DNA of 32,000 nucleotides from an uncultured archaeon (GCA_964354495.1 CAYHAA010000002.1:207154-239153); one strand, 5' to 3'; positions 13,915 to 32,000 are shown, counted from the stretch's first letter. Translations and numbers: made by a program. The notes: generated by a model not told the origin, from the letters alone.

Positions 13915-14127
13915 ATATTGCCCTATTCGTCGTTGCTCTACACTTTTCATGAGAAGAATTCTGCAATACAGAATTCGGGATGACTTGAAGAAATATCCTC
14001 TCTCAGTATATTTTCAAGGCTGCCATTCTTATCGTGATGAATTGGGATATACATGACACAATCTTTGAAAAGGGAGAAACGACACACAGAAGGTACTTAA
14101 GACATCCACAAAAGAGCCATACTAGAT

Positions 14128-14132
14128 GGAGG
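14128..14132 (+). promoter_or_regulatory. Shine-Dalgarno-like GGAGG for the large helical protein
   Basis: GGAGG lies 9 nt before the in-frame TTG at 14142. The same 9-nt spacing occurs for GGAG before the next two genes (16832-16835, 18232-18235). Confidence 0.55.
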
Positions 14133-14141
14133 CACGTCATT

Positions 14142-16832
14142 TTGGACAGTCACAGCTGGAGACGCGAACTTGACAAATTCGCGGAACTAAAGGGTATCTT
14201 GGTGTCGGTCAATCCGGCAATGGAAGAACAAGCAAATAGACATGTTCGAAACCTCTATGACATTTTTGCTCAGCTAAGCAAGCTTGAGAACGATTTAGCA
14301 ACAGCAGGAATGCTAAAGAAACGGAAGGTCCAAGCTGAGGTCGAAAAGACCCGAAGTGAGCTCGAAGACTCGTTCATGAAGGCAATTCGGGACTTCGCAG
14401 AGTACTTCCGAAAAGAACATAGAGATGTTATATCCATCCTTCCCAAGATTCAGGCCATAAAACCCGCAGAAGCAAAGTCCATCTCAACTATCAATTTCCC
14501 AGGAATCGGTGCAGGAGACCTGAAGGACTTCGAAGTGCTGCTCGAGTTCGCCAAGTCTTTCTCGAAGCTATACCTTGTAGTCCATCAGGAAGTTGCACGT
14601 GAAGTCAAGTCAACGCTGGATGAGAATAAGGCAACTGTCGATACATATGAGAGGCACATTACTATTGACAAGAGTGAGGTCTCGACGACTGTAGCAGACA
14701 ATGATGTTGTCGGTCTCTCGCTCCGCGATCTAATTCTTCTGAACGACAAGCTCACAGAGGACAGGAAATATCTTGACGCCCGAAAGGACGAAGTCAGCAG
14801 ACTACTTGGTTCATCGCTGGTAAGTGATACGGAATCACTACAGGCATCCGTCGAAACAGCTGCAAGATTAGGTCTGGACCTGCCAATCGAATTCTCACAG
14901 CAGCTCAGATTGATTGCCAGAGATGCCAGCAAAGCAGCTGACCTGACCACACTTGTTGCTCTCGAGAATCAACTTCATACCTCGAAAGTGAAAATGGCTA
15001 ATGTCCTAAGAGACAAGATTATCAACGTCAAGCACGAGGTCACACAGAAAATCGTCGAGGGCGGAATACCAACGACCTCGGAGATTATTCCGAGCCCTCC
15101 CACAGTCAGTGTCGAGGGAGAAGGAATTGCGGGACTCTTATCGAACTACCAACGAATGGTCGAGTGGGAAGGCCAAGTAAGAATCGCTCTTAGAGAACGG
15201 CTGTTTGAATTGCTCGACGACGTCGAAAAGGCGTCTGAAGTCCCAAAGGAGACCGGAATCAAAGATATAGTCACCGTGAGGCAGTTCATTGCAGAGTCAA
15301 AGGGTGTTCTGAAGAGTGCAGATATTGATGAGATGATCAGAATCTATCTCAAAGCTAAGGTCATGGACGACCAGTATCGAAAGGCAATCATAGATAGCAT
15401 CAGAGCGTATCTCACTCGATTCAATGAGTTGGCCACCTCAGCCGATAGAGTACTGGACCACGCGCAACTCAGTAAGAAGGCACCTAAGGTCGAAGAACTG
15501 GAAGGTGGAATCACGTATCTACTCGAGTCCCTTCTCACCTTGAGGGGAGCTGTAGAGAGCGGTGTGGCAACATTTAGAGACGCGTGTCAACAAGAGATTG
15601 ATGCAATCATACAGGATCTTCAGACAATAAAGCCAGCCTATGCTGAAATCTTCATGCCTATTATTGTTGATCTAGATGAGGGGTCCGCACGAATTCAAAA
15701 GATGGATGACTTTTCAGAGATCAAATCCGAGATGCGCTCAATCAAAGATACGATGCTTGCAAAAGCAAAAGATTCCTTGGAGAATCTCCGATACAGGCTT
15801 GGTGTGAAGATACGACTTGCAGCAGCAAAACTGATGGGTGCCGGGGTAGATATTCCTGCAGAGGTCCACGGAGCCATTAGTGAACTGAACAATGTCACTG
15901 TCGCCGCAGACACCGTCTTCGCTCTTCCTGCCGTTGCAAGAAAGATGATTGAGATCTACGAAAAGAAGATCTCGTCCAATGTCATCAACAGATTGAGCAA
16001 AGAGGTAGATGCACTTTACACATCACTTGATAGAGCGAAGAGCATTGGCGTGAAAGTGGACAAGGAGCTGAAGATGCTTCAGGAGCTCAAAGACAAACCA
16101 CCATCAGAGCTTGAAGAGGCTGCCGATGCATTTGACAAGCTCATGGGTTTGACCACATCACCTCAGGTCCACAAGAAGATTCGAGAAAGAGTCAATGAGG
16201 CTTACGTTCAGATCAAGAGTGCTGTGGCTCTCTTTGAGGACCAGGGGATGTCAGAATTCGTTGAGAGGCTGAAGGTTCTCATAGAGCAAGTCCCGGCGAG
16301 GCTCGATAAGGAATCTCCTCATGTAAATGATGCGCTTGATGTCTGTCTCACTCTAGCCAATATTCAGGAAGAGATGCTTACAGTCATTAAGAACATGGCA
16401 AATATGAGCCACGACAATTATGAACGGGAACTGAGAGCGAAGAGCCAATACTACTCCACAATCGTGAGGGTGGTCGAAAACCATCAAAACGATTTCAGTA
16501 AAGTTGTTTTCAATATCAAGAAGATGAAGGAGCTTGAGTCCACACTCAATGTGTTATCAAACCTTGATGAGGCCATAGCGTGCTTCCATGAGCTAGAGGA
16601 AATGCGAAAGCAATGGCTCGAGAAAGCTGTCGCAATGGACGATTGGCATAAATCCCTCAGGATGTTCATGACAGGTTTCAGCCCGGCTGCCAAACCTGAT
16701 GAGCGGGACAAGTTCATCGAGGAGGCAACTAGGAAGGTCAAGGAAACGTACTCCAGAGAGGATATCAGTTCTTATCTGAGCTGGGCTATCAAAGAAAGTG
16801 CACAAGCACTAGTTGGTAAGAGAAAATCATAG
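14142..16832 (+). CDS. Large (~896 aa) alpha-helical repeat/coiled-coil protein of unknown function
   Basis: Long ORF (the track starts at GTG 14034; I prefer TTG 14142 from the SD). It is L/E/K/A/I/D-rich and amphipathic-helical throughout, with no TM segment and no Walker A motif. Modules of about 61-72 aa are visible by eye. Confidence 0.8.
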   Translation: MDSHSWRRELDKFAELKGILVSVNPAMEEQANRHVRNLYDIFAQLSKLENDLATAGMLKKRKVQAEVEKTRSELEDSFMKAIRDFAEYFRKEHRDVISILPKIQAIKPAEAKSISTINFPGIGAGDLKDFEVLLEFAKSFSKLYLVVHQEVAREVKSTLDENKATVDTYERHITIDKSEVSTTVADNDVVGLSLRDLILLNDKLTEDRKYLDARKDEVSRLLGSSLVSDTESLQASVETAARLGLDLPIEFSQQLRLIARDASKAADLTTLVALENQLHTSKVKMANVLRDKIINVKHEVTQKIVEGGIPTTSEIIPSPPTVSVEGEGIAGLLSNYQRMVEWEGQVRIALRERLFELLDDVEKASEVPKETGIKDIVTVRQFIAESKGVLKSADIDEMIRIYLKAKVMDDQYRKAIIDSIRAYLTRFNELATSADRVLDHAQLSKKAPKVEELEGGITYLLESLLTLRGAVESGVATFRDACQQEIDAIIQDLQTIKPAYAEIFMPIIVDLDEGSARIQKMDDFSEIKSEMRSIKDTMLAKAKDSLENLRYRLGVKIRLAAAKLMGAGVDIPAEVHGAISELNNVTVAADTVFALPAVARKMIEIYEKKISSNVINRLSKEVDALYTSLDRAKSIGVKVDKELKMLQELKDKPPSELEEAADAFDKLMGLTTSPQVHKKIRERVNEAYVQIKSAVALFEDQGMSEFVERLKVLIEQVPARLDKESPHVNDALDVCLTLANIQEEMLTVIKNMANMSHDNYERELRAKSQYYSTIVRVVENHQNDFSKVVFNIKKMKELESTLNVLSNLDEAIACFHELEEMRKQWLEKAVAMDDWHKSLRMFMTGFSPAAKPDERDKFIEEATRKVKETYSREDISSYLSWAIKESAQALVGKRKS

Positions 16833-16844
16833 GAGCGTAAATTC

Positions 16845-18230
16845 ATGTCAGGCGCCAAGACTTCCACAGACACTGATGATACAACAAAGTCTGCAGAAAT
16901 GTTCGCAATCGGGATTGGTGAGTGTGGTTCTAATATTGTAGGATCGTACCTCCAGACCAGCCGCGACAATAAGCTGCCATCTCGTGTTCGTGGTTACCTT
17001 TTGATCAACACCGACCGAGCAGACCTCACGAAGGTACGGCAAAAATACCGAATTCCCAAGGAGAACACCCTTCTATATGGAGCATCAGAAATTGGTGTAG
17101 GTGGTCGCTTCATGGATGGATACAATGCAATCATGGAGTCCAAGGACATCATATTCGACCAACTTGCCAACTTGGGCTTTGAGGGAGTCTCGGGATTCTG
17201 TATCTTTACATCCTTAGGTGGTGGTACAGGCTGCGGCGGTACCCCTGCACTGATTGAACTACTCAAGCAGAGGTTCCAAGAGGAAGAGGGCAGACGTATC
17301 TTTGTTTATGTTGTTGGTATTCTTCCCTTCGAAGGGCAGTCAAGTGAAGCTCTGAACTCCATTTGGGCGGTCTCAAAGCTGCTTCGTGCCCAGCTTCAAG
17401 AGCGTGGCGCAGACCTCACGATCTTGCTGTCGAACAGGACTATGCTCAAGCGTATCCTTCAGTGGAGGAAGGGCGATACTGTCGACTACCTACGGAAGGA
17501 ACTTGCAGTTGACATAGCAGACATCGACTCCATTGAGAGTATGGTTCCCTCGACACTCGATGAAGGCAGTGCTGCTGAGACTCGAACTGAACAAGCTTTC
17601 GTAGAACTTGTCAACCCACTCGCTCTTGATGTTGTTGAAGCAATGCTATCACCCGGTGTCTGGGAGAGCGCAAAGGATGTCTTTCCAACCACTGATCTAG
17701 CAGACTACGCCCGAAAACTTGACCCGGTAGTTGTTCCAGCTCTGTACACCGATATTGGTCTCATCCCTGATGCAGGCAGTATGCCAAAACAACTTAGAAC
17801 GATGATTGACTATGCAGTGAAGGAATGTAGTTATGCTGACGTCGGGGAGGAGCCCAACGCAGAGAGTGTATACTATGTACTGTCGGGTCCGACCCACATA
17901 GCAAAAGCTGAGTACGGGATGCATCTCAAAGAAGCTCTGGAAAAATTCATCGCACCAGGAGCCGCAATTACTCCGTGCTATGTGCAATACCATATTCCTG
18001 ATGCAAAGACAAACTTGCTCCTTCTTCTCGGTCTGCCAAAGATACCAGAACTAGTCACTATCATCAATGAAGCCACGCAGCTGGTGAACCTTCATAGTGG
18101 TGCATCGCCGTTGAAACAAGGCTGGTTCATGCGGTCCAAAGGAACATCAAGAAAAGAGTTGGTCGATGCAATAAATGACTTCCGTGAGCTATTCAGCTAC
18201 TACATGAGTCCGGGAGAATCAATAGAGTAG
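16845..18230 (+). CDS. Tubulin/FtsZ superfamily GTPase (divergent, CetZ/FtsZ3-like with tubulin-like features)
   Basis: T1 IGIGECGSNI (aa 22-31), LINTDRADL, GVGG, signature SLGGGTGCGGTP (aa 123-134), VGILPF, LTILLSN (N197), H7 VNPL (N257), T7 TTDLADY (D284, D287) and a C-terminal LLLLLGLPKIPEL strand/helix. Confidence 0.92.
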   Translation: MSGAKTSTDTDDTTKSAEMFAIGIGECGSNIVGSYLQTSRDNKLPSRVRGYLLINTDRADLTKVRQKYRIPKENTLLYGASEIGVGGRFMDGYNAIMESKDIIFDQLANLGFEGVSGFCIFTSLGGGTGCGGTPALIELLKQRFQEEEGRRIFVYVVGILPFEGQSSEALNSIWAVSKLLRAQLQERGADLTILLSNRTMLKRILQWRKGDTVDYLRKELAVDIADIDSIESMVPSTLDEGSAAETRTEQAFVELVNPLALDVVEAMLSPGVWESAKDVFPTTDLADYARKLDPVVVPALYTDIGLIPDAGSMPKQLRTMIDYAVKECSYADVGEEPNAESVYYVLSGPTHIAKAEYGMHLKEALEKFIAPGAAITPCYVQYHIPDAKTNLLLLLGLPKIPELVTIINEATQLVNLHSGASPLKQGWFMRSKGTSRKELVDAINDFRELFSYYMSPGESIE

Positions 18231-18244
18231 TGGAGTGTGTCTAG

Positions 18245-19309
18245 TTGTCAGATGACGCTTCTTTCCATTCCGCGGACCTGATTGACAGATTGCTGCTCAT
18301 TGTGACGCTAAACTCCACATTGATCCATTTCCTCCTGAGCACCCAGGTTGAGGAGACCGTAGATCCGGATAGAGTTGATTCTCTTACACAGGGACTGCTG
18401 AGAACAAGAAAATGGATGGAAGAAGCCACAACAATGAAGGGCATTCCTCCTTCAACTCAAAATATTCTCAGTCTGATCGTCAAACGTCTGGCCCAGATTG
18501 AAAGTCTATTACCAAAGTTATCCAGTAAGGCAAAGGAGGCAGAGATAACCCCGGCACATGAGATTCTGTCCCTCCTTGATTCAGGACACGAAACAAGTCG
18601 CGCTGAGCAGCTTGAGCCAACTCAGATTCAGGGTACTGAAACTGAGCTAGTTCCACCCGCAGTACAAGTACCTGTGAAGCCCCTAGAGGCATACAAAAAG
18701 GTCGACGTGGAAGATGATATGTTTGGTCTCATTGGGCAGACTCAACGCCTGATTCAACAATACAGTCAGAGAGAGCACGTTCTTCTGCCAACTTTTTGGT
18801 TGGAGGTTTTGAGGGAGGTCCACAAGTATAAGTCGGATTCACCCTATTTGGGTGATGTTATTGAACAACCGTCCCGAATCCTGGCAAGAATCATAAGGGG
18901 ATTATTGACAGAGGCTCCAGGTGCTAGACTGCTGCAGGAACTTATGAAGAACCGTGAGCAGGAGAGCTATGTCAGTAGTTCGGAGATTGAGAGAATCGAA
19001 CGAGCAGTCGCCAAGTATTTTGCAGGTGTGGAGGGAGTCCTGAAGGAGGACAAGGTGAATTCCAAGGAGAAGATTCTAGAAGCTCAGACCGCATTTGATG
19101 GATTTGGATGGGGCGGCCCAGATCTTGAGAAGCGTCTGATTAAGAGACTGAATCAAGAATGCGAGGAGGCTCTTCATAATGCTGAATCTGCAACGGATGA
19201 GGCAAGAAAGGTCATCTACGCTGAAGTGACCAAAATGCTATGTAAGCTCCAGCATGCAATTCTGGCCGAAGCTCGACTTCAAGAGATGTTCACGCAAATG
19301 AAACCATAG
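18245..19309 (+). CDS. Hypothetical alpha-helical protein (354 aa), third gene of the tubulin-like operon
   Basis: TTG start 14 nt after the tubulin-like stop, with GGAG 9 nt upstream. It has two helical regions joined by a P/E/Q-rich linker. I recognise no family motif. Confidence 0.75.
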   Translation: MSDDASFHSADLIDRLLLIVTLNSTLIHFLLSTQVEETVDPDRVDSLTQGLLRTRKWMEEATTMKGIPPSTQNILSLIVKRLAQIESLLPKLSSKAKEAEITPAHEILSLLDSGHETSRAEQLEPTQIQGTETELVPPAVQVPVKPLEAYKKVDVEDDMFGLIGQTQRLIQQYSQREHVLLPTFWLEVLREVHKYKSDSPYLGDVIEQPSRILARIIRGLLTEAPGARLLQELMKNREQESYVSSSEIERIERAVAKYFAGVEGVLKEDKVNSKEKILEAQTAFDGFGWGGPDLEKRLIKRLNQECEEALHNAESATDEARKVIYAEVTKMLCKLQHAILAEARLQEMFTQMKP

Positions 19310-22719: not shown

Positions 22720-23871
22720 ATGCGACACAGACTTGTTTACCCCTATTCTGATGCACTACTCGGATACGAATTAGGCAAGGACCATCCGTTGAGACCGGAG
22801 AGACTGAAGCTCACTCATATTCTTTCTGAACAACTGGGGCTCACTGAGAAAGTGGATCAGCTTGAACCTGAGCTTGCCTCAAGAGCTGACCTAGAGCTCT
22901 TTCACTCTTCCGAGTACATTGAAGCTGTGGAACGGTGTGGCGCGACTCTTGGCTCGGATCCGGAGCACGGGCTAGGTACTCCGGATAACCCTGTATTCCC
23001 CCAAATCTATGAAACGGGAGCGAGATATGTGGGTGCCACGCTTGATGCAATGAAAAGTATCATTAATGGAGCGTCCAATGCATTCTCAATTTCAGGAGGG
23101 CTTCATCATGCACATCGAAATGCCGCATCGGGATTCTGTATCTTCAATGACATTGCAGTCGCAATTAACTATCTCAAGAAGAAGAAAGGCGATGGTATCC
23201 GGTGCCTGTATTTTGATATTGATGCACATCACGGTGATGGGGTTCAGAATGCATTCTACCGCGATAAAAACGTGCTTACTATTTCAGTACATCAAACGGG
23301 AAAGACCCTCTTTCCTGGCTCTGGATTCGTGTATGAAACTGGAGGGGCTGAAGGAACTGGTTATTCAGTGAATGTGCCCTTGATACCCGGAGCAGGAAGC
23401 CCCGAACTCATCAAGACCTACGAGGAGATAGTAGTACCGCTCTCTGAAACTTACAAACCAGATTTGCTCGTCACGCAGCTGGGTGTGGACGGCCATTATT
23501 TGGACCCCCTTGCACATTTGGCGTATACGTCCTATGGATACGAAACGGTTGTCCGAGGCCTAAGAGACTTAGCCACTGATATCTGTTCCCTTGGCTGGCT
23601 TGCAGTTGGAGGTGGAGGCTACAATCCGGCAAACGTAGCTCGCCTTTGGACACTGTTCTTGTCGATTATGCTGGATGAGAAGGTACCAAAGGATGTACCA
23701 GAGGAGTTCAGGAATATATGTGTAGCAATGGGATTCGACGGTTGCCCGAAAACGATGAGAGACGAGGACGAAGTGGTCCAGATGTACTTCTCACGAGAGG
23801 AAGTATCATTGGACCTTGAGAGAACTCTCCGAAGAGTGCAAGAACTGATCTTTCCATATCATTCACTTTGA
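22720..23871 (+). CDS. Histone deacetylase family protein (AcuC/class I-like)
   Basis: HPLRPER, GTPDNPVF, SGGLHHA, GFCIFND, YFDIDAHHGDG, FPGSG, QLGVDGHYLDPL and GGGGY. The likely start is ATG 22720. Confidence 0.95.
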   Translation: MRHRLVYPYSDALLGYELGKDHPLRPERLKLTHILSEQLGLTEKVDQLEPELASRADLELFHSSEYIEAVERCGATLGSDPEHGLGTPDNPVFPQIYETGARYVGATLDAMKSIINGASNAFSISGGLHHAHRNAASGFCIFNDIAVAINYLKKKKGDGIRCLYFDIDAHHGDGVQNAFYRDKNVLTISVHQTGKTLFPGSGFVYETGGAEGTGYSVNVPLIPGAGSPELIKTYEEIVVPLSETYKPDLLVTQLGVDGHYLDPLAHLAYTSYGYETVVRGLRDLATDICSLGWLAVGGGGYNPANVARLWTLFLSIMLDEKVPKDVPEEFRNICVAMGFDGCPKTMRDEDEVVQMYFSREEVSLDLERTLRRVQELIFPYHSL

Positions 23872-23892
23872 TGGGACTGACTAATCGCGGAC

Positions 23893-24507
23893 CTACCTTA
23901 TCTGATTATCAATCCATTTGCGAAGTATCTTGATAACAAGGTCTGAAGCGGCCGCCATGATTATCGAGTCTGCGTCTTCTGATAGAAGTGAAGAAGGATC
24001 AACTCCAGACTGCGCTACGCGAAGAAGAGATGGGTAGCATAATAGTCCAAGACCTTGGACTACGTCAAGAGAGTCATTGCCTGTTATTTGGAAATCTGTG
24101 CCAAGTTTCTCAGATGGGACTATTTTTGAATCGGTATCAAGAAGCTGAAGTAGTACGTCAAGCGTGGCAATAATCTCAACGTCGGGCTCAATGCATTCCT
24201 CGAATACCTCTGGCGTTCCATCGTCGAAGACGAGCGATGCAATCTCGTCAATGTCGACTGCACGAAAACATATGGTCAGATTCTTGAAAGACTCCATTGT
24301 CGTCTGCATGTATTCTTCAAATCTCTCATCGGATAACTCATTGAGATGTTTTGCCTCTTCAAGACTGATATTCAAAGCTGCTCGACAACCATCTACAACA
24401 GGTCCAAGATACTCCATTAGCATATACTTATCCTGGTTGATAGCACCTGCAATATTGCGAAGCCTTCTCTCCAGTGTAGCATAGCCTCTCTCACTCTCTT
24501 CGGTCAA
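23893..24507 (-). CDS. Hypothetical acidic protein (204 aa)
   Basis: The ORF fills the gap between the HDAC and amidohydrolase genes and has a protein-like, D/E-rich composition. TTG start; no motif recognised. Confidence 0.65.
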   Translation of the reverse strand: MTEESERGYATLERRLRNIAGAINQDKYMLMEYLGPVVDGCRAALNISLEEAKHLNELSDERFEEYMQTTMESFKNLTICFRAVDIDEIASLVFDDGTPEVFEECIEPDVEIIATLDVLLQLLDTDSKIVPSEKLGTDFQITGNDSLDVVQGLGLLCYPSLLRVAQSGVDPSSLLSEDADSIIMAAASDLVIKILRKWIDNQIR

Positions 24508-24619
24508 TATCAGTCAAGCTGGGAGGCGTAAGACTGCATATAGAGGTACTGCTGGACACATGGGCATATCATACATTTACTGAAAAGGACAATATGCATG
24601 GTTTATTCGATGGTGTCCG

Positions 24620-25375
24620 ATGACTACTGACATACATACGCACTTGGGGACAAGTCCAAATGAAGTTCTGACTGTGAATTCAGAGAATCTCGTTGAAGAA
24701 GTGGACATGCTAATCTCACGAATGGACACCTTTGGAATTGACAAATCAGTGCTTGTACCAAATGAGCCGAAAGTTCCCACAAGCCTCTACATCAAGGCTG
24801 CTGATATCTACCCAGACAGGCTGTTTTCTGCGTGTTCTATTATTCCAAGGCCGATGGACCGGGCAAAACAACAACTAGAAGGATACGTCGACCAGGGATG
24901 CAAGGCACTGATTCTCAGTGACGATATTTACTACCCCTCCGACCCCGCAGCTCTTGCATTGGTACATGCAGCCGTTGCAAAAGACATTCCCGTATACCTT
25001 CAGAGTAACGAACTGACCGGGGAAACAATATCATTCCTAGATTCTATCACGACAGTGTATCCTGAAGGCAAATTCGTTGTATTGAGTATGGGAGGCCTCT
25101 TTGGTTTTCCACAACTCATTCCTTTAACATCTCGACCGAATCTATGGCTGGAGCTCTCAACCACATTTGCCAAGCTTGTAGAATCCCCGCTCAGGGTCTA
25201 TCTCGATGCGATTGTTCAAGATATCGGTGTGCGAAAACTCGTCTTCGGCTCTGGCTTCCATAGCCAGTATCCGGATATGATCGCAGCTCTAAACCTGATA
25301 GATTTGAACATTGAAACACGCAGATTAGTCATGAGGGAGAATGCTTGGGTGATATTGGGTGTTAGTTTCTCATAA
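24620..25375 (+). CDS. Amidohydrolase-family (TIM barrel) protein, probably degenerate
   Basis: N-terminal DIHTH, MDTFGIDKSVL, YPDRL, PVY, YPEGKFVV, PNLWLELS and KLVFGS, the layout of the Amidohydro_2 family. Confidence 0.8.
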   Translation: MTTDIHTHLGTSPNEVLTVNSENLVEEVDMLISRMDTFGIDKSVLVPNEPKVPTSLYIKAADIYPDRLFSACSIIPRPMDRAKQQLEGYVDQGCKALILSDDIYYPSDPAALALVHAAVAKDIPVYLQSNELTGETISFLDSITTVYPEGKFVVLSMGGLFGFPQLIPLTSRPNLWLELSTTFAKLVESPLRVYLDAIVQDIGVRKLVFGSGFHSQYPDMIAALNLIDLNIETRRLVMRENAWVILGVSFS

Positions 25376-25395
25376 TCATCTGTAGGAGCCAGATC

Positions 25396-25767
25396 TTACC
25401 CAGTCAGCACGCTCTCATGAACAAGACGTTCAATATCATCTGGACTAGGGAGTCCAATCACTCGTGAACGTCCAACTTGAATCATGGGGAGTGCGATAAT
25501 ATTCATCTTCTCTATTAACCCTGGTTGGTTATCTACAGGTCTTTCCCTGACTTCCACACGATTCGCGAGATAGGCAAGTCGGCATGCAGCTGACTTTGCT
25601 GCTTCAAGAGCTTCGCCACAGAATGTACAATACTCGCTCGTGAACACGTCGATTCTTAGGGGGGCAGGTCCATTCAGGGGCACTGTCTGTTCTTGTCGAA
25701 CCTCAGGATTGAGGTTAATCCTCTGTTGCATTATTGTGCCTCCATTGGAGAAGTGATGAGATCTCAT
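25396..25767 (-). CDS. Small thioredoxin/glutaredoxin-like protein
   Basis: IDVFTSEYCTFC (CxxC), cis-Pro motif ALPMIQV and RVIGLP. The start is 25767 (ATGA overlap with the upstream stop) or 25731. Confidence 0.82.
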   Translation of the reverse strand: MRSHHFSNGGTIMQQRINLNPEVRQEQTVPLNGPAPLRIDVFTSEYCTFCGEALEAAKSAACRLAYLANRVEVRERPVDNQPGLIEKMNIIALPMIQVGRSRVIGLPSPDDIERLVHESVLTG

Positions 25768-26000
25768 TCTGCGAAAACGGGCGGCTTCAACCGGACGTGC
25801 TCGGATACCGAGTCAACAGCCCGCAATGGTATGGCTTCCCAGGATTGCCTCTTTTCCTCCAAGGATCCACTCTTTTCGATTATTACCATCGGCCCGCTGC
25901 TCTCGTCGAACCATATCTTTCTTACACGTCCTAGTGGAAAGCCTCTGAAGTCACAGACAATCTTTCCTTTGAGCAACCATTTGATCTCGTCGTTCTCCAT
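25764..26000 (-). CDS. Small PRC-barrel domain protein
   Basis: LLKGKIVCDFRGFPLGRVRKIWFD...IPLRAVDSVSEHVRL matches the PRC-barrel pattern (GK-V-(D)-x-G-x-x-LG-x-V-x-x-I-x-x-D ... IP-x-x-x-V-x-x-V-x-x-x-V). I prefer ATG 26000 to the track's 26060. Confidence 0.75.
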   Translation of the reverse strand: MENDEIKWLLKGKIVCDFRGFPLGRVRKIWFDESSGPMVIIEKSGSLEEKRQSWEAIPLRAVDSVSEHVRLKPPVFAE

Positions 26001-26146
26001 AGTCCTCAGCGATTGTTCCAAGTACAAGATGAACAAGAGCCTGTGTACAACCAACGTCATTCCAGCGTAACACTAAGTCTGGATTAAAATGATTGAATCT
26101 CAAGACGCGACTTGCAGGCGATCTGTCCAACCAATGCCTGCATTCT

Positions 26147-26761
26147 CTATTGCTGCTTTTCCCCAGTTTCCTTTTCTTCATATCCCCATGAGATGATAGT
26201 GTCACTATCAGAGGGGAAGAGAGTACCGGGGAGACAGTAACCACCTATGATCATAATGATTCCAAATATGTTCAGCGCGCCGCCTATGACAATGAACAGA
26301 CGTGAATCGCTTATTTGATTCAGACCAAGATCGAAGAGTGTTGCACCTAAAACGCGATCCACGGTCAGCGTATAGTTGCCGGTGGCAATATCAATTACCA
26401 GACTGTCCTCATAGAAGATGGATTGCTCAGGCCCAACGATCTGATTCTCTTCAGTGAGAGTCATATTGACAAACGTCACATCGAGCGTCACATTATTGAC
26501 GATTGATATGTCCAAGTAGATGATTGTCTGATTGCCTGGACGCAAAGAAACAGAGACCTCAAGTTGGGGGTAGTAGTTTGCCGCGTCATACACCTCGAAA
26601 GTTCTCTGGTCGTTTTGCATTATTGAGAAATTCACATAGTGATAGGGGGCCATCACTACTATCATGCCGCCAAGGAGTATGACCATGGCTCCACCAATGT
26701 AGAGAAAAGACTTCTTGCTGAACCAGATACTACCCATCAATAATCGACCCTTATGAATCAC
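26147..26761 (-). CDS. Hypothetical two-TM membrane protein with an extracellular beta-rich domain
   Basis: Hydrophobic segments near both termini flank a V/I/T/N-rich domain with five N-x-S/T sequons. Confidence 0.7.
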   Translation of the reverse strand: MIHKGRLLMGSIWFSKKSFLYIGGAMVILLGGMIVVMAPYHYVNFSIMQNDQRTFEVYDAANYYPQLEVSVSLRPGNQTIIYLDISIVNNVTLDVTFVNMTLTEENQIVGPEQSIFYEDSLVIDIATGNYTLTVDRVLGATLFDLGLNQISDSRLFIVIGGALNIFGIIMIIGGYCLPGTLFPSDSDTIISWGYEEKETGEKQQ

Positions 26762-26868
26762 TATACTTCACTGTTATATCTATAGCGAACAATGTAATGT
26801 CTAGTGCCATTGATGGAACTATCTCCAGAACAGCCAAATAATCAAAGTGCATAAAGACGGGGACAGCT

Positions 26869-27735
26869 ATGAGATTCCTGAGTCTAGCGACAACATTGGA
26901 CGCAGTAAGCAAGACTACAAAGAGGAAAGAGAAAACCAGTCTGGTCGCCAGACTATTGAAAGAAACAGAGCTATATGAAGTAAGCCCAGCAGCGCTCTTC
27001 CTGGCCGGAAGAATCCTTCCTGAGAGTGATCAGCGTACTCTGAATGTGTCATGGAGCGGTCTAATCGGAGCTCTTCACAGTGTCATTGATTTCAGGGATG
27101 AAGATTTCAGCAAGTTCTATGAAGGCGATGCAGGAGAAGCAATTGCGGCACTGATGGAGTCAAAAGCTCATACTAAACAATCTGTGCTTTTCCAAGAGCC
27201 ACTCACTATACAATCGGTTAGTGATAGATTCACAAAGATTGCACTCGCTGGGGGAAAGGGCGCGATGAAGGAGAGGCAGTCGTTGATATCTCCACTTCTT
27301 GGAGAAGCGACACCAAGGGAGATTCGCTATATCGTTGCGCTCATTCTCAATGATATGAGAACGGGTCTCTCCCATGGCTTGCTTGTCGAGTGTATTGCAG
27401 AGGCATTCTCCGTTGACGTAGAATTAGTCAGAAGAGCATGGTATTTCACTGGCGATTTGGGTGAAGTTGCACGTCTGGCTGCAGAACATGGAAACCGGGG
27501 TCTCAAACAAGTCAATATCAAGCCCATGATTGCTGTCAAACCAATGCTCGCGAGCCCAGTCAGTGACTTGAAATCGGCTCTAGAAATTGGCGAAGGAAGC
27601 GAACTGTCTTTCGAGATGAAATTCGATGGTGCCCGCGTGCAGATTCATAAGGAGGGAGAGAATACAAGAATCTTTTCAAGAGGACTGAATGACGTCACTG
27701 AAAGCCTTCCTGATATTGTGCAGGAGGTGAGTAAG
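26869..27735 (+). pseudogene. lig: ATP-dependent DNA ligase, N-terminal 289 codons (DNA-binding domain and adenylation motif I), interrupted by an inversion
   Basis: Ligase DBD (RKEK, MRTGLS), KPMLAS, motif I FEMKFDGARVQIHK and IFSR. Ligase-like sequence stops at ...DIVQEVSK (27735); the ORF then runs into a non-native tail to a stop at 27762. Confidence 0.93.
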
Positions 27736-28553
27736 GGTCAGCTAAATCATCGTGCCTTGTAACGAAATTGGACATCGAAAGCGGCTCGCAGTTCCTTTAG
27801 GGTAGTCGCATTTTCTGGTTTCTTGTCGTCTCGAATTCCTGTTATTCGGGCGAATCTCAAAGCCAGTCCAGATTCATATTTCGGGCTCTCCTGAATTTCA
27901 GCTGCCAGAACTTCAACTACAATCTCAGGTCTTACCCTAACGAGACCTCGGCTTCTTGAAAGCTGGATACGTTGGAGTCTGTCAGTCATCGCTTGAAACT
28001 CAATATCTGTCAATCCCTTGAACGTCTTGCCCACCATTGCGTACTCGTTCGCTTCTTCATCGAGGACTGCGAGATGATAATCTGAAAGCCACTTATTCCT
28101 TCGGCCATGCCCCCACTCAGCTGCAATGATCACCAAGTCCATTGTATTAAGTGTGTGTTTAATCTTTAGCCAGTGTTTTCCACGTACACCGGGAACGTAG
28201 GGAGAGGAAACCATTTTGGCAACAAGCCCCTCATGCCCAATCTCTTTGCTTCGGAGAAAGAAGTCTTCTGCGACGCGAAGTTCACTCGTCACAACCCTCT
28301 CTGCGATCATCGAATCCGGCAGAATTCCTTCGAGTCGTTCTCTCCTTTGAGAGTACGGTTCTTCGATAAGCATCTGCCCATTCAGTTGAAGGATGTCAAA
28401 GATATAGAGAAGCAGCTTGACTTCCTGATTTGTCGTTTCAACATCTCTGGTTCTTCCGAATCTTTTCATGACCACTTGGAATGGATAGGGTTTGCCCATC
28501 GGGTCTACAGCAACAACCTCGCCGTCCAAGATGAACTGACTAGCTCTGACGCT
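27736..28553. other. 818-bp inverted segment carrying the 3' half of lig
   Basis: TAAG (27732-27735) and CTTA (28554-28557) form a 4-bp inverted microhomology. Reversing the segment gives ...QEVSK|SVRASQFILDGEVVAVD in frame. Confidence 0.9.
27747..28553 (-). pseudogene. lig: ATP-dependent DNA ligase, C-terminal 268 codons (motifs III-VI and OB domain) on the opposite strand
   Basis: ILDGEVVA (III), LYIFDIL (IIIa), HEGLVAK (IV), WLKIK (V), DLVIIAAEWGHGRR, VGKTFKGLTD, RPEIVVEV and ALRFARITGIRDDK (VI). Confidence 0.93.
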
Positions 28554-28708
28554 CTTAGGTCTTGTATTCGTTTTCTGTCATCATGGGCGCTCCTGCCTAG
28601 TTTCTATCATTCTATGAACCAATCTCTTGAACGCTCCATTGAGGAGCATCGCAGACCACAGCCTTTATAGGGAATACAGTCCGGGAAAAATCTGAAGGAG
28701 CCTCTACT

Positions 28709-29089
28709 ATGTGGTTAGAGATTACCATCATACCGTTTATCCTCTTATTCATAGTGTTCTTGATATTCTGGATAGTTCACGAGGGGTCGCGGTGGCAGAA
28801 ACATCGCTATTTGGGTGTATTCGCCAGGATTACTCAAGCTTCGCCGCGCAGGGGTTTTCTGATCTTCTTCTTCCTCACGATAATGTTCATTCCACTCGCA
28901 GTTCTAGTCATGACAGGGCTGTGGATGGACACAATGCCCTCTCCTCAAAAAGGGGATGTTGTCAATGTAATGCTCGTTACACTCGTAGTATTGTCATTCG
29001 CCTTTCCAGTTATGTGGGGTAGTTTCCGTACGTGGCGTCAGACTGTGAGAGCAGAGGCGGAAATGAAAATCAGACCAACTGGAGCATAG
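28709..29089 (+). CDS. Small hypothetical membrane protein (3 TM)
   Basis: 126 aa with three strongly hydrophobic segments separated by short basic loops. Confidence 0.7.
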   Translation: MWLEITIIPFILLFIVFLIFWIVHEGSRWQKHRYLGVFARITQASPRRGFLIFFFLTIMFIPLAVLVMTGLWMDTMPSPQKGDVVNVMLVTLVVLSFAFPVMWGSFRTWRQTVRAEAEMKIRPTGA

Positions 29090-29166
29090 TCTTCGTAGAG
29101 ATATGGCAGTCCGTTCATATCCATGGACACACCAACCATTTCTACTCTCATGATTAGAGGTGTCGA

Positions 29167-30081
29167 TTGATGACTCATGTGGAGTTGGCTGAGGGGCTTT
29201 ATGTTGTTACTGGCGGATACTTTCCAAGATGCAACACAATAGTGATCATTGATGAGGAGGTTGTCGTCATCGACCCAGGCTGCGGAATTGAGGACCTTCG
29301 AGCCTTCCTGATGACACAGGATCTCACGCTTAGGAACATCGGAACTGTCATCCTTAGTCATATACATCCTGACCACATCACACATGCAGCGCGGCTCAAT
29401 AGACTGTCCCGTTGTAGGATTGCAGCTAATGCAATCACAGCACCTCTCTTCAATGACAAGGAGAAGATGAGAGATTTTCTCGGTTTTCACAAAAGCAATC
29501 CTGTCAGAACGCTGTGGGAGGAAATGGTGAACTCAAAGATGTATGGTGCACTGGACGAAGGACATGTCGATGAAGAGCTTAGGGACGGCGACAAATTCGC
29601 GCTTGGCAAGTACACGCTTCGAATGCTCTATACTCCGGGACATCTTCCTGACCATATGTGCATTGAGATAGTGGAGCCGAACCTTGTCTTTGGAGCTGAC
29701 ATAGACCTTACGGAGTTCGGCCCTTACTACGGACATCCTAATTCCTCCGTCCCGGAATTCAAAGACTCCATTATGAGGCTACAGCACAATGACTACGATG
29801 GCCTCATCAGTGGGCATCTTGTTAACCCTCTTGTCAGAGACTACAAGACTGCACTGGCATCATACCAACGACAGATCGGGATGCGTGAGGACCTTGTGCT
29901 TGCTGCGATTATGAATGGAGCAGGTTCTGTTCAAGAAATCACGCTCAATCCTATCATCTATCCCTCCCTCACTGGTCCAGTGTTTCTCCAGTTTGAGACT
30001 TGGATGATAGAGCATCACGTAAAATCGCTTCTAGATCGAGGCTTGATTGAGGAAAAGAAGAAGCGATTCATTGCCCTATGA
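29167..30081 (+). CDS. Metallo-beta-lactamase-fold hydrolase with a C-terminal winged-helix-like extension
   Basis: VVVIDPG, LSHIHPDH (HxHxDH), TPGHLPDH, GAD, ISGH, and C-terminal HVKSLLDRGLIEE. Confidence 0.9.
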   Translation: MMTHVELAEGLYVVTGGYFPRCNTIVIIDEEVVVIDPGCGIEDLRAFLMTQDLTLRNIGTVILSHIHPDHITHAARLNRLSRCRIAANAITAPLFNDKEKMRDFLGFHKSNPVRTLWEEMVNSKMYGALDEGHVDEELRDGDKFALGKYTLRMLYTPGHLPDHMCIEIVEPNLVFGADIDLTEFGPYYGHPNSSVPEFKDSIMRLQHNDYDGLISGHLVNPLVRDYKTALASYQRQIGMREDLVLAAIMNGAGSVQEITLNPIIYPSLTGPVFLQFETWMIEHHVKSLLDRGLIEEKKKRFIAL

Positions 30082-30906
30082 TTCTTCGCTCAGAAACGCG
30101 TTCGAAGAGAGATTCTTTAGCCTCATCATCAACTCAGACTTTATGGCCCTGATTGCTTGTATGGCGGGACTGCTTTCATTGAGGTCAATGGGCGCAATCC
30201 CGCGTCGATCTGCTTCACGCACGGTTTCGTCAAAGGGAACCATTCCAATCAATGGGATGTTCTGGGATTTCAGGGCCATGGAGATGAAGCTGGCATCATC
30301 CTCCCCAGTGACCTTATTCCCTACTGCAAACACGCGTGCGAGCCCAATATCTGCTGCAAGACCTCGTATTCGTTCAATCGTATCGAGCGACCTCTTTCCT
30401 GGCTCAACGACTGCAAGAAGAGCGTCCATACCGCGTGTCGTCCCTCGACCTAGGTTCTCAATCCCTGCATCCATGTCCATGATGAAAGCCTCGTTGCTCT
30501 CAAGGCTGAGATAGTTGATGAGTGCCTTGAGAAGAGCTGCTGAAGGACACATGCAGCCTTGTCCGCCCATATTGACCGTACCAGCCACAAGAAGGCTGAC
30601 ATTGTCAGGACCTGCAATAGCGAAGTTCTCTGTCAAATCGTTGACAGTAGGGTGAATTTGGAAGAAATTCCCGAGAGCCTCGACCCATTTCATTTCAGTC
30701 TTCTGGCGAACAAGCTCCTCATTCTCAAGGAGAGGTCGTATTTTTCGAGCTATCGTATCATCCATGCCGATTGCAGACCAAAGGTTGTAGTTTGGATCAG
30801 CATCTACTGCAAGGATTCTCAGACCATCACGTCCTAGGAGTCTTGCAAGTGTGCCAGCAATGGTGGTTTTTCCGACGCCACCTTTGCCTGTGACTGCAAC
30901 TTTCAT
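30076..30906 (-). CDS. cooC: CooC-type nickel-insertion ATPase (CODH/ACS maturation factor family)
   Basis: KVAVTGKGGVGKTT deviant Walker A, AVDADP, GCMCP (CxC metal site), DMDAGIENLGRG, VVEP and VGNKV. Confidence 0.9.
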   Translation of the reverse strand: MKVAVTGKGGVGKTTIAGTLARLLGRDGLRILAVDADPNYNLWSAIGMDDTIARKIRPLLENEELVRQKTEMKWVEALGNFFQIHPTVNDLTENFAIAGPDNVSLLVAGTVNMGGQGCMCPSAALLKALINYLSLESNEAFIMDMDAGIENLGRGTTRGMDALLAVVEPGKRSLDTIERIRGLAADIGLARVFAVGNKVTGEDDASFISMALKSQNIPLIGMVPFDETVREADRRGIAPIDLNESSPAIQAIRAIKSELMMRLKNLSSNAFLSEES

Positions 30907-31059
30907 CGGGTGTTGGAGCGCGTAAGAATGTAATGAGTCTGTCGCTGTCTTCTTGTAGCATCCTCGCAGTCAAGCGGAGAGATGCCTGAAGAACAGCAAT
31001 GGGAACGGCCGATGAGATTAGTTAATAGTATCTATGTCTGCTGGAAAAATGAGAAGGTC

Positions 31060-32000
31060 ATGAGAGACGAAAAGGGACTCGGAAATGCCAATCATTTGAC
31101 TGGAGAGAAGAGCCCATACCTCTTGCAGCACGCCAAGAACCCGGTCCATTGGTATCCTTGGAATGACGAAGCCTTTGAGAAAGCGAAGAAAGAAGACAAA
31201 CCAGTCTTCCTCTCAATAGGATACAGCACCTGTCATTGGTGCCATGTCATGGCGCATGAATCCTTTGAGGATGAAGAGGTTGCGAAACTTTTGAACAACG
31301 CCTTTGTCAACATCAAGGTGGACCGCGAAGAGCGACCGGATATAGATGGCGTCTATATGCAATTGGCACAGATGTTGACCAATCGTGGAGGATGGCCTCT
31401 GACAATCATCATGACACCGGACAAGAAACCCTTCTTTGCAGGAACCTACATTCCAAAAACAACCGATCACAACTCTATTGGATTGCTGGACCTCATTCCG
31501 AGAATTGCAGAATTGTGGAGTGAAGACAGAACCAACATTGATGAAGTGGTTCAGAGAATAGAAAACGCACTAGAAGAAATGTCCTCTCAGGAGTTGAGTT
31601 CTGAACTCTCAGAGATTGATATTACAGCAGCTTTCGGCGAGTTGTCCCAACGATTCGACGAGAAACACGGAGGCTTTGGCAGTGCTCCGAAATTCCCCTC
31701 ACCTCACAATCTCGTGCTAATACTGCGGTACTGGAAAAGAACAGGTGATGCATGGGCACTTCGTATGGTCGAGAAGACACTCACAGAGATGAGGAAAGGA
31801 GGCATCTTTGACCAGTTGGGCTATGGGTTTCACAGATACTCAACTGATTCGCATTGGTTACTTCCTCATTTTGAGAAGATGCTATATGATCAGGCAAGTC
31901 TAATGCTTGCGTATACAGAAGCATATCAAGTATCCAAGAATCCCTTCTTCGCGCAAGTAGTCAGAGAGATTTACGAGTACGTGACACGTGATTTGATGAG
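31060..32000 (+). CDS. Thioredoxin domain-containing protein (YyaL/DUF255/SPATA20 family), 3'-truncated by the window edge; absent from the ORF track
   Basis: My translation from ATG 31060: [24 protein letters not shown]...[21 protein letters not shown]...[12 protein letters not shown]...GGWPL...[10 protein letters not shown]...[17 protein letters not shown]...[11 protein letters not shown]. The frame stays open to the window end. Confidence 0.95.

What the first reader, a model, noticed from the sequence alone, without database searches (positions are those of the whole stretch)
26869..28557. DNA ligase gene split by a precise 818-bp inversion with 4-bp inverted microhomology
Seen: the 5' half (+, to K289 at 27735) and 3' half (-, from 28553) face each other. 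Reverse-complementing 27736-28553 yields ...DIVQEVSK-SVRASQFILDGEVV... with no base gained or lost, a 557-aa ligase with motifs I-VI in order. The breakpoints share only TAAG/CTTA. In the restored orientation, the right junction just past the stop reads GACC-CTTA-GGTC, a mini-hairpin. Known: the ATP-dependent ligase is generally the essential replicative ligase in archaea, and recombinase-driven invertons normally have longer inverted repeats and often a nearby recombinase; neither is present here. Inference: most likely an assembly or amplification artefact or a rare allele. If real and fixed, it implies a second ligase, split-protein complementation or an unusual switch.
Basis: partly seen in the sequence, partly recalled or inferred. 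Interest (0 to 1): 0.75.

Follow-up and report, generated by a model that had tools for sequence, protein, structure and literature searches.

The report
Spare DNA ligase broken by inversion
In one lineage of an uncultivated Thorarchaeote (Asgard archaeon), an 818-base piece of a second, dispensable DNA ligase gene has been flipped exactly in place at a 4-base inverted repeat; it is a real but ordinary one-off mutation, not an assembly error or a switch, and the cell keeps its other, universally conserved ligase.

Summary
Flipping 27736-28553 restores a 557-aa ATP-dependent DNA ligase with nothing gained or lost. The restored gene is colinear with the sister species and with about 98%-identical strains.

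It is not an assembler artefact:
- The genome is a k=55 de Bruijn assembly.
- Logan's independent assemblies of five public runs carry the inverted junction.
- One of those runs carries it on a haplotype that differs from the window at one base.

It is lineage-specific. About 98%-identical strains in three other studies have the intact orientation. So do all 17 orthologues found in the 24 same-genus genomes searched.

It is tolerated. An intact LIG1/Sulfolobus-type ligase lies on contig C9 and occurs in all 41 relatives. The broken Pyrococcus/Thermococcus-type paralogue is missing from 7 of the 24 same-genus genomes.

I found no recombinase in the 32-kb window, no long inverted repeats at the breakpoints, and no other micro-inversion in about 340 kb compared with the sister species.

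Best reading (0.8): a recent microhomology-mediated inversion that turned an accessory ligase into a pseudogene. A switch, working split halves and a library artefact each remain at about 0.04-0.06.

The scan has met the same kind of event before on other DNA (Nitrosarchaeum ADH, Aquifex VapC). Interest is low to modest.

The parts
26869..27735 (+). 5' part of the accessory ATP-dependent DNA ligase gene (codons 1-289): DNA-binding domain plus the first third of the adenylation domain, including motif I (EMKFDG)
   Evidence: ORF and translation; PF04675 residues 3-177 and PF01068 profile 1-66; 89% identical to the intact G012 orthologue
27736..27762 (+). Eight foreign codons (GQLNHRAL) and a stop that now end the 5' fragment. 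They are read from the reverse complement of the gene's former 3' end.
   Evidence: This exact 297-aa product is called on Logan contigs of five runs.
27732..27735 (.). Left copy of the 4-bp inverted microhomology (TAAG). The breakpoint can lie anywhere in 27731-27736.
   Evidence: joints listed with 'both = 4'
27736..28553 (-). The inverted 818-bp segment: ligase codons 290-557 (28553 to 27750: rest of the adenylation domain with motifs III-V, and the OB domain with motif VI), stop 27749-27747, and 11 nt of the former 3' flank
   Evidence: PF01068 profile 71-204 and PF04679 1-94; opposite orientation in G012 and in contigs of runs X1, X5 and X6
28554..28557 (.). Right copy of the inverted microhomology (CTTA). 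In the ancestral orientation it is the loop of GACC-CTTA-GGTC.
28497..28529 (-). The only possible starts of the 3' fragment: TTG 28529-28527 (the Leu of motif III, LDGE) and ATG 28499-28497 (the 250-aa gene call in Logan). The frame is closed upstream by TGA 28580-28578.
27660..27669 (.). Left arm of a perfect 10-bp inverted repeat whose partner is 28560-28569. It lies outside the breakpoints and is probably chance.
   Evidence: I18. About 0.8 such pairs are expected in 1.3 kb by my own estimate. The crossover is not in these arms.

Best explanation
This is a real, recent, lineage-specific balanced inversion of 818 bp inside a non-essential paralogous ATP-dependent DNA ligase gene of a Thorarchaeote.

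How it arose (inferred): illegitimate recombination at a 4-bp inverted microhomology (TAAG/CTTA). The route was either a double template switch of a replicating strand or the rejoining of two breaks guided by the microhomology.

What it did:
- The gene is cut inside its adenylation domain, between motif I and motif III.
- The 5' piece keeps its promoter and start. It would give a 297-aa stub: the DNA-binding domain, motif I and 8 foreign residues.
- The 3' piece has lost its start and its upstream signals.
- The gene is therefore most likely a fresh pseudogene.

Why it is tolerated: the genome keeps an intact LIG1/Sulfolobus-type ligase on contig C9, which is the ligase conserved in all relatives.

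Shown: the inversion, its precision, its presence in reads of several runs, its restriction to one lineage, the second ligase, and the patchy distribution of the broken paralogue.
Inferred: the molecular route of the inversion and the loss of function.
For: 1. The structure is real and exact.
- Searches confirm the layout in the window.
- G012 is colinear on both flanks, and only 27738-28556 is flipped.
- No base is gained or lost.

2. It is not an assembler artefact.
- G000 contig ends overlap by exactly 55 bp in 64 cases, so the assembly is a k=55 de Bruijn graph and the junction 55-mers must be in reads.
- The exact 297-aa junction product is on Logan contigs of five runs.
- ERR3804374_19082 (236,425 bp) is 100% identical to window 22869-31762 across both junctions. 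Two more runs have long contigs.
- ERR4334727 and ERR4334728 carry the left junction on short contigs.
- The ERR4334727 contig has the ancestral C at 26895 where the window has A, so it is a second haplotype with the same inversion.

3. It is lineage-specific and derived.
- Contigs of X1, X5 and X6 come from three studies and are about 98% identical to the window. All join 27731/28557 and 27735/28553 on opposite strands, which is the intact orientation.
- All 17 orthologues in the 24 same-genus genomes searched have open frames of about 560 aa, except one cut short at a contig end.

4. It is a one-off.
- No other local inversion was found in 76 kb plus 265 kb of G000 aligned to G012.

5. It is recent.
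- There are no extra stops or frameshifts.
- Substitutions on the window's lineage are 6 non-synonymous to 8 synonymous, against 5 to 11 on the sister lineage.

6. The gene is dispensable.
- The C9 ligase is intact at 612 aa. It is closest to the solved Sulfolobus ligase 2hiv and to human LIG1.
- It is present in all 41 relatives.
- The broken type is closest to the Pyrococcus/Thermococcus ligases 2cfm and 3rr5.
- It is absent from 7 of the 24 same-genus genomes. In five of them I searched with both halves and found no trace of either. One of these five is rated 99% complete.

7. The microhomology signature.
- The 4-bp microhomology has P about 0.018 against random intervals.
- Template switching between short inverted repeats is a described route to spacer inversion (PMC8604942, abstract).
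- Microhomology-mediated short-range inversions are described in organelle genomes (PMC4417113, abstract).
Against: - I could not see raw reads of the source runs. The only raw-read run laid (X23) held nothing. Logan contigs are consensus sequences and hide minor variants.
- The five runs with the inverted form fall in two accession series and may come from one site or campaign. I could not establish that they are independent.
- The substitution pattern on the window's lineage is not measurably relaxed and both halves are still open. This fits a very recent event, but it equally fits halves that are still under selection.
- The mechanism is inferred only from the junction signature.
- Loss of function has not been tested.
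Confidence: 0.8

Rival explanations
1. Programmed, reversible intragenic inversion (an inverton or phase-variation switch) that turns the accessory ligase off and on.
For: - The inversion is exact and would restore the gene perfectly if reversed.
- Both orientations exist within one species-level group at about 98% identity.
- Intragenic invertons that introduce early stops are described, with one archaeal case (PMC10028968).
Against: - Only 4 bp of inverted identity lie at the breakpoints. The experimentally locked inverton in PMC10028968 has 11-bp repeats, and such elements are found through detectable inverted repeats.
- No recombinase, integrase or transposase lies in the 32-kb window.
- Orientation follows lineage. 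The intact and inverted forms differ by about 2% of bases, and each run shows one orientation only.
- None of the 17 same-genus orthologues is inverted.
Confidence: 0.05
2. The two pieces still work together as a split ligase, or the 297-aa DNA-binding stub has a function of its own.
For: - Both pieces remain open with no secondary damage, and N:S on the window lineage is 6:8, not clearly relaxed.
- The 5' piece keeps its native start and upstream region.
- A TATA-like element (TATAAA on the - strand, about 28661-28671) lies upstream of the 3' piece.
Against: - The cut lies inside the adenylation domain, between Pfam profile positions 66 and 71, not at a domain boundary.
- The 3' piece has no start at the break. 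The first candidates are TTG 28529, inside motif III, and ATG 28499, past motif III.
- The split is not conserved in any relative.
- The event is young enough that an absence of decay is expected anyway.
Confidence: 0.06
3. Library-level artefact: chimeric molecules made during amplification or library preparation, propagated into all assemblies of the same DNA.
For: - I could not inspect raw reads of the source runs.
- Amplification chimeras are typically inverted joins at microhomologies (my own knowledge, not tested here).
- The inverted form is seen only in ERR runs that may be related.
Against: - Both reciprocal junctions are present and exactly complementary. That needs two matched chimeras that outnumber the true sequence.
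- The form is the consensus in five runs from two accession series.
- One of these runs carries a different haplotype, with C at 26895.
- No other micro-inversion appears in about 340 kb compared with G012. That would be odd for an artefact-prone library.
Confidence: 0.04

Closest known systems
Spontaneous inversions at short inverted repeats or microhomologies. [quoted passage not shown]
   Same: - A balanced flip of the spacer between two short inverted sequences.
- No recombinase sites.
- A one-off event that inactivates a gene.
- A microhomology signature at both junctions.
   Different: - Only 4 bp of identity and a spacer of 818 bp. The PMC8604942 abstract speaks of short, non-identical inverted repeats, and by my recollection (not checked here) such template-switch events usually involve closely spaced arms.
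- Seen here as a natural polymorphism in an uncultivated Asgard archaeon, not in a laboratory assay or an organelle.
- The route itself was not tested.
Intragenic invertons (Chanin et al., 'Intragenic DNA inversions expand bacterial coding capacity', PMC10028968)
   Same: An inversion that lies almost wholly within one gene (it takes in 11 nt of the former 3' flank) and creates a premature stop. Both orientations are found among close relatives.
   Different: - Invertons are recombinase-driven and reversible, bounded by detectable inverted repeats (11 nt in the tested thiC case), and both forms coexist in one clonal population.
- Here the repeat is 4 bp, no recombinase lies in the window, and each sample shows one orientation.
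Archaeal three-domain ATP-dependent DNA ligases: Pyrococcus furiosus 2cfm, Thermococcus 3rr5 and 4eq5, Archaeoglobus 3gde. The partner paralogue resembles Sulfolobus 2hiv and human LIG1.
   Same: - The restored protein, judged by its 89.6%-identical G012 orthologue P0001, aligns end to end with 2cfm and 3rr5 at E about 1e-122.
- It has the three Pfam domains in order.
   Different: - In this genome the gene is cut in two by the inversion.
- The genome also carries the other archaeal/eukaryotic ligase type, and that type, not this one, is conserved in all relatives.
Earlier findings of this scan on other genomes: a 390-bp inversion at a 4-bp inverted repeat in a Nitrosarchaeum alcohol dehydrogenase gene (e1-2586420), and a 96-bp inversion in Aquifex vapC (e1-3078664)
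   Same: A precise small inversion inside a gene at a very short inverted repeat, judged a one-off inactivating mutation.
   Different: A different gene and organism. Here there is added population evidence: both alleles in public runs, and two haplotypes with the inversion.

Membership tests
ATP-dependent DNA ligase, three-domain archaeal/eukaryotic type (PF04675 + PF01068 + PF04679) | N-terminal DNA-binding domain | tested here: met
   PF04675, E 6e-32, profile 2-174 of 174 on the 5' piece
ATP-dependent DNA ligase, three-domain archaeal/eukaryotic type (PF04675 + PF01068 + PF04679) | One continuous adenylation (nucleotidyltransferase) domain carrying motif I lysine through motif V | tested here: not met
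   PF01068 profile 1-66 is on the + strand piece and 71-204 on the - strand piece. Motif I (KFDG) and motif III (LDGE) are on different ORFs.
ATP-dependent DNA ligase, three-domain archaeal/eukaryotic type (PF04675 + PF01068 + PF04679) | C-terminal OB-fold domain with motif VI | tested here: met
   PF04679 profile 1-94 of 94 on the 3' piece
Inverton / recombinase-driven phase-variable inversion | Inverted repeats of roughly 10 bp or more exactly at the inversion boundaries | tested here: not met
   Only TAAG/CTTA at the boundaries. The nearest longer repeat (10 bp, 27660-69 / 28560-69) is not at the crossover.
Inverton / recombinase-driven phase-variable inversion | A site-specific recombinase (invertase) associated with the locus | tested here: not met
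   No recombinase, integrase or transposase family among the ORFs of 180 aa or more, the genes next to the ligase and the called genes of the 32-kb window. The rest of the genome was not screened for invertases.
Inverton / recombinase-driven phase-variable inversion | Both orientations coexist within one population or haplotype | tested here: inconclusive
   Each run shows a single orientation, and the two orientations sit on lineages about 2% apart. But only consensus contigs could be examined, not raw reads.
Microhomology-mediated (template-switch or illegitimate) inversion | Balanced inversion with short inverted microhomology at both junctions and no inserted or lost bases | tested here: met
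   Microhomology of 4 bp or more at 1.8% of random intervals.
Microhomology-mediated (template-switch or illegitimate) inversion | Sporadic, lineage-restricted occurrence (not conserved, not recurrent at the site) | tested here: met
   Intact in all 17 same-genus orthologues and in about 98% strains of three studies. It is the only micro-inversion in about 340 kb compared with G012.
Microhomology-mediated (template-switch or illegitimate) inversion | Replication- or repair-dependent origin without a dedicated enzyme | not testable with these tools
   Inferred from the junction signature only
Naturally split archaeal genes complemented in trans (as in Nanoarchaeum; from my own knowledge) | The split is conserved in relatives and each piece has its own start | tested here: not met
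   No relative has the split. The 3' piece has no start at the break, and its frame is closed by TGA 28580-28578 with the first start at TTG 28529.

The most novel reading that the evidence does not exclude
The flip is not a dead end. It could be a rare, recombinase-independent or unknown-enzyme reversible switch with a 4-bp core. Or the two fragments could still work: a DNA-binding and motif-I stub together with a catalytic-core and OB fragment. Either would give an Asgard archaeon a way to modulate an accessory repair ligase. The evidence does not exclude this, because raw reads of the source samples could not be examined and both halves are undamaged.
Probability: 0.06. Interest if true: 0.7.

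Novelty: new member of a known kind. Interest (0 to 1): 0.22.

Why it matters
Mostly as a clean-up: the alarming reading, that the replicative ligase is broken, is wrong. The broken gene is a spare paralogue. The other ligase type, LIG1/Sulfolobus-like, is the one conserved throughout these Asgard relatives.

It is also a well-documented natural example of an exact microhomology-mediated inversion in an uncultivated archaeon:
- both alleles are present in public data;
- the ancestral sequence is known to the base;
- two haplotypes carry the derived form.

That makes it a usable marker for strain tracking and a data point on spontaneous rearrangement mechanisms in Asgard archaea. Annotators should label the two ORFs as one pseudogene, not as two ligase genes.

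Tried and rejected
- Raw reads: the only raw-read run offered (X23, about 1% of it read) laid no read on the stretch, so it is no test.
- No RNA holder was listed, so nothing can be said about expression.
- A scan of JGI metagenome contigs for the 30-mer left of the breakpoint, which would have caught either orientation, found nothing.
- A paper search for the three ERR accessions found nothing, so the relation between the five runs with the inverted form is unknown.
- The protein cluster around the G012 orthologue holds no intact protein of the window's own strain. P0123 is G012-like at 89.8%.
- The 10-bp perfect inverted repeat 27660-69 / 28560-69 was considered as the recombination site. 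I rejected it because the crossover mapped by G012 and by the X-run contigs lies at 27731-27736 / 28553-28558.
- A topoisomerase IB route was considered. The ancestral right junction reads CCCTT|A, and the genome has a TopoIB gene on C27. I left it as an untested lead because the left junction reads CTCTT|A and nothing links the enzyme to the event.
- I did not look up the restored 557-aa protein by identity, since it is not encoded as such in the window. No complex prediction was run, because I do not claim that the halves bind.
- Schofield et al. 1992 could not be read. Only its reference entry was seen.

Full report
**What is in the sequence**

The + strand ORF 26869-27762 encodes 289 residues of an ATP-dependent DNA ligase. 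Eight foreign residues and a stop follow. The - strand reads the rest of the same ligase from 28553 down to 27750, with its stop at 27749-27747.

Pfam puts the DNA-binding domain (PF04675) and positions 1-66 of the adenylation domain (PF01068) on the first piece. Positions 71-204 of PF01068 and the whole OB domain (PF04679) are on the second. Reverse-complementing 27736-28553 gives one 557-aa frame.

The breakpoints carry TAAG (27732-27735) and CTTA (28554-28557). The restored right junction reads GACC-CTTA-GGTC.

**Organism and second ligase**

The window is G000:C2:207154-239153, in a 3.3-Mb, 51-contig genome rated 97.7% complete. Source names of close homologues are Thorarchaeota (Asgard archaea), and earlier notes of this scan on the same genome agree.

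The genome has a second, intact ATP-dependent ligase of 612 aa on contig C9. It shares about 27% identity with the broken one over the N-terminal half.

- The C9 enzyme is closest to the solved Sulfolobus ligase 2hiv (E 3e-157) and scores about 298 bits on human LIG1.
- The broken type was represented in this search by its 89.6%-identical G012 orthologue P0001. It is closest to the Pyrococcus/Thermococcus/Archaeoglobus ligases (2cfm, 3rr5, 4eq5, 3gde) at E about 1e-114 to 1e-125.

**Which ligase is the conserved one**

The C9 type is found in all 41 genomes searched: the genome itself, 24 of the same genus and 16 others of the order and phylum. A few of these matches are fragments at contig ends.

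The broken type has an orthologue in 17 of the 24 same-genus genomes. Each has an open frame of about 560-610 aa, except one cut short at a contig end. Seven same-genus genomes lack it. In five of those I also searched with the 3' half and found only the C9 type; one of the five is rated 99% complete.

So the inverted gene is an accessory paralogue, and its loss is compatible with life in this genus.

**The inversion is derived and exact**

The nearest species, G012 (89% amino-acid and 87-89% nucleotide identity), is colinear with the window on both flanks. Only 27738-28556 aligns in the opposite orientation. The restored G000 sequence and G012 have the same length through both junctions.

Logan contigs from three other studies (runs X1, X5 and X6) come from strains about 98% identical to the window. 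All of them join 27731/28557 and 27735/28553 on opposite strands, which is the intact gene. The tool notes that 4 letters fit either side of each joint. These strains show no difference from the window within about 40 bases outside, or about 75 bases inside, either junction. The ancestral sequence is therefore known to the base.

**Not an assembler artefact**

Contig ends of G000 overlap by exactly 55 bp in 64 cases. The window's contig runs on into C29 and C19 in the order seen in G012. This is the signature of a short-read de Bruijn assembly with k=55. Such an assembler cannot invent a junction at a 4-bp repeat, so the junction 55-mers must be in reads.

Independently, the exact 297-aa junction product is called on Logan contigs of five runs:
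- ERR3804374_19082 (236,425 bp) is 100% identical to window 22869-31762 across both junctions.
- Two more runs have contigs of 0.2-1 Mb that carry both fragments.
- ERR4334727 (1,697 bp) and ERR4334728 (1,526 bp) cross the left junction.

The ERR4334727 contig differs from the window at one base. At 26895 it has C, the state also seen in G012 and the sister strains. The inversion therefore sits on at least two haplotypes, as expected of a heritable allele and not of a chimeric library molecule.

A comparison of 76 kb plus about 265 kb of G012 with G000 shows no other local inversion. The assembly is not riddled with such events.

**Age and consequences**

I took the 31 differences between the window and the X1 strain inside the gene and polarised them with G012.
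- The window's lineage has 6 non-synonymous and 8 synonymous changes.
- The sister lineage has 5 and 11.

There are no further stops or frameshifts. Selection is not measurably relaxed, so the event is young relative to the roughly 2% divergence.

The cut lies between motif I and motif III, inside the adenylation domain. The 5' piece keeps its start and upstream region. The 3' piece is closed upstream by TGA 28580-28578. Its first possible starts are TTG 28529, the Leu of motif III, and ATG 28499, beyond motif III. Loss of ligase function is the likely outcome, but this is inferred and not shown.

**Mechanism**

No recombinase, integrase or transposase family is encoded in the 32-kb window. 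The only inverted identity at the crossover is 4 bp. A perfect 10-bp inverted pair (27660-69 / 28560-69) lies outside the crossover and is about what chance gives.

Inverted microhomology of 4 bp or more is found at 1.8% of random 818-bp intervals of this window, so the microhomology is probably mechanistic. The signature fits either of two routes:
- a double template switch: a nascent strand ending in TAAG re-pairs with the CTTA on the opposite strand, copies the segment backwards, and switches back at the second copy;
- microhomology-guided rejoining of two breaks.

Template switching between short inverted repeats that inverts the spacer is described (PMC8604942). So are microhomology-mediated short-range inversions linked to replication stress (PMC4417113). 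[quoted passage not shown] 1992; I saw only the reference entry.

**Comparison with switches**

Intragenic invertons (PMC10028968) are recombinase-driven. They are bounded by detectable inverted repeats, 11 nt in the tested case, and both orientations coexist in one population. Here the repeat is 4 bp and no recombinase is nearby. Orientation follows lineage, since the two forms are about 2% apart, and each run shows a single orientation. I could examine only consensus contigs, so a minor fraction of the other orientation cannot be excluded. That is why the switch reading keeps a few per cent.

**Verdict**

This is a real, recent, lineage-restricted, microhomology-mediated inversion that made a pseudogene of a spare ligase in a Thorarchaeote. 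It is tolerated because the conserved LIG1-like ligase is intact.

This scan has reported the same kind of event on other DNA: a 390-bp flip at a 4-bp repeat in a Nitrosarchaeum ADH gene, a 96-bp flip in Aquifex vapC, and a 331-bp flip in an efflux ATPase gene.

It is a tidy and unusually well-documented case, but not a new kind of thing.

Noticed in passing
G000:C9:48633-50468 (- strand; locus L001:1024-2862): A second, intact ATP-dependent DNA ligase (612 aa) of the Sulfolobus/human-LIG1 type. It is present in all 41 relatives searched, whereas the Pyrococcus-type paralogue is patchy. These Thorarchaeota commonly carry both archaeal ligase types.
   Followed up: yes
G000 C1:289799-289978, C12:18256-18438, C16:58191-58370, C4:57847-58030, C6:71215-71415, C7:21113-21294, C25:3010-3206, C32:3160-3338 and others; G012 loci L040:4779-4959 and L030:13467-13688: A dispersed repeat of about 180 bp, in both orientations, with ten or more copies at 75-92% identity, shared by G000 and G012. 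It is not a tRNA and matches no Rfam family. It may be a MITE-like element.
   Followed up: partly
window 16845-18230 (+), flanked by 14034-16832 and 18245-19309: A 461-aa ORF with a Tubulin/FtsZ GTPase domain (PF00091, E 9e-20). It sits between a 932-aa and a 354-aa ORF that match no Pfam family.
   Followed up: no
G000:C27:15781-16503 (locus L045): A eukaryote-type topoisomerase IB domain (PF01028, E 1.5e-59) in a 699-aa open frame. I noted it because the ancestral right junction of the inversion reads CCCTT|A. No link was shown.
   Followed up: no
window 32000 (= end of contig C2) and G000 contigs C29, C19: C2, C29 and C19 abut with exact 55-bp overlaps and lie in this order along G012 contig C17. 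The three contigs could be joined, and the window's contig end is only an assembly-graph break.
   Followed up: partly
window 27660-27669 and 28560-28569: A perfect 10-bp inverted repeat (GAATACAAGA / TCTTGTATTC) brackets the inversion but is not at the crossover points. It is probably chance.
   Followed up: partly
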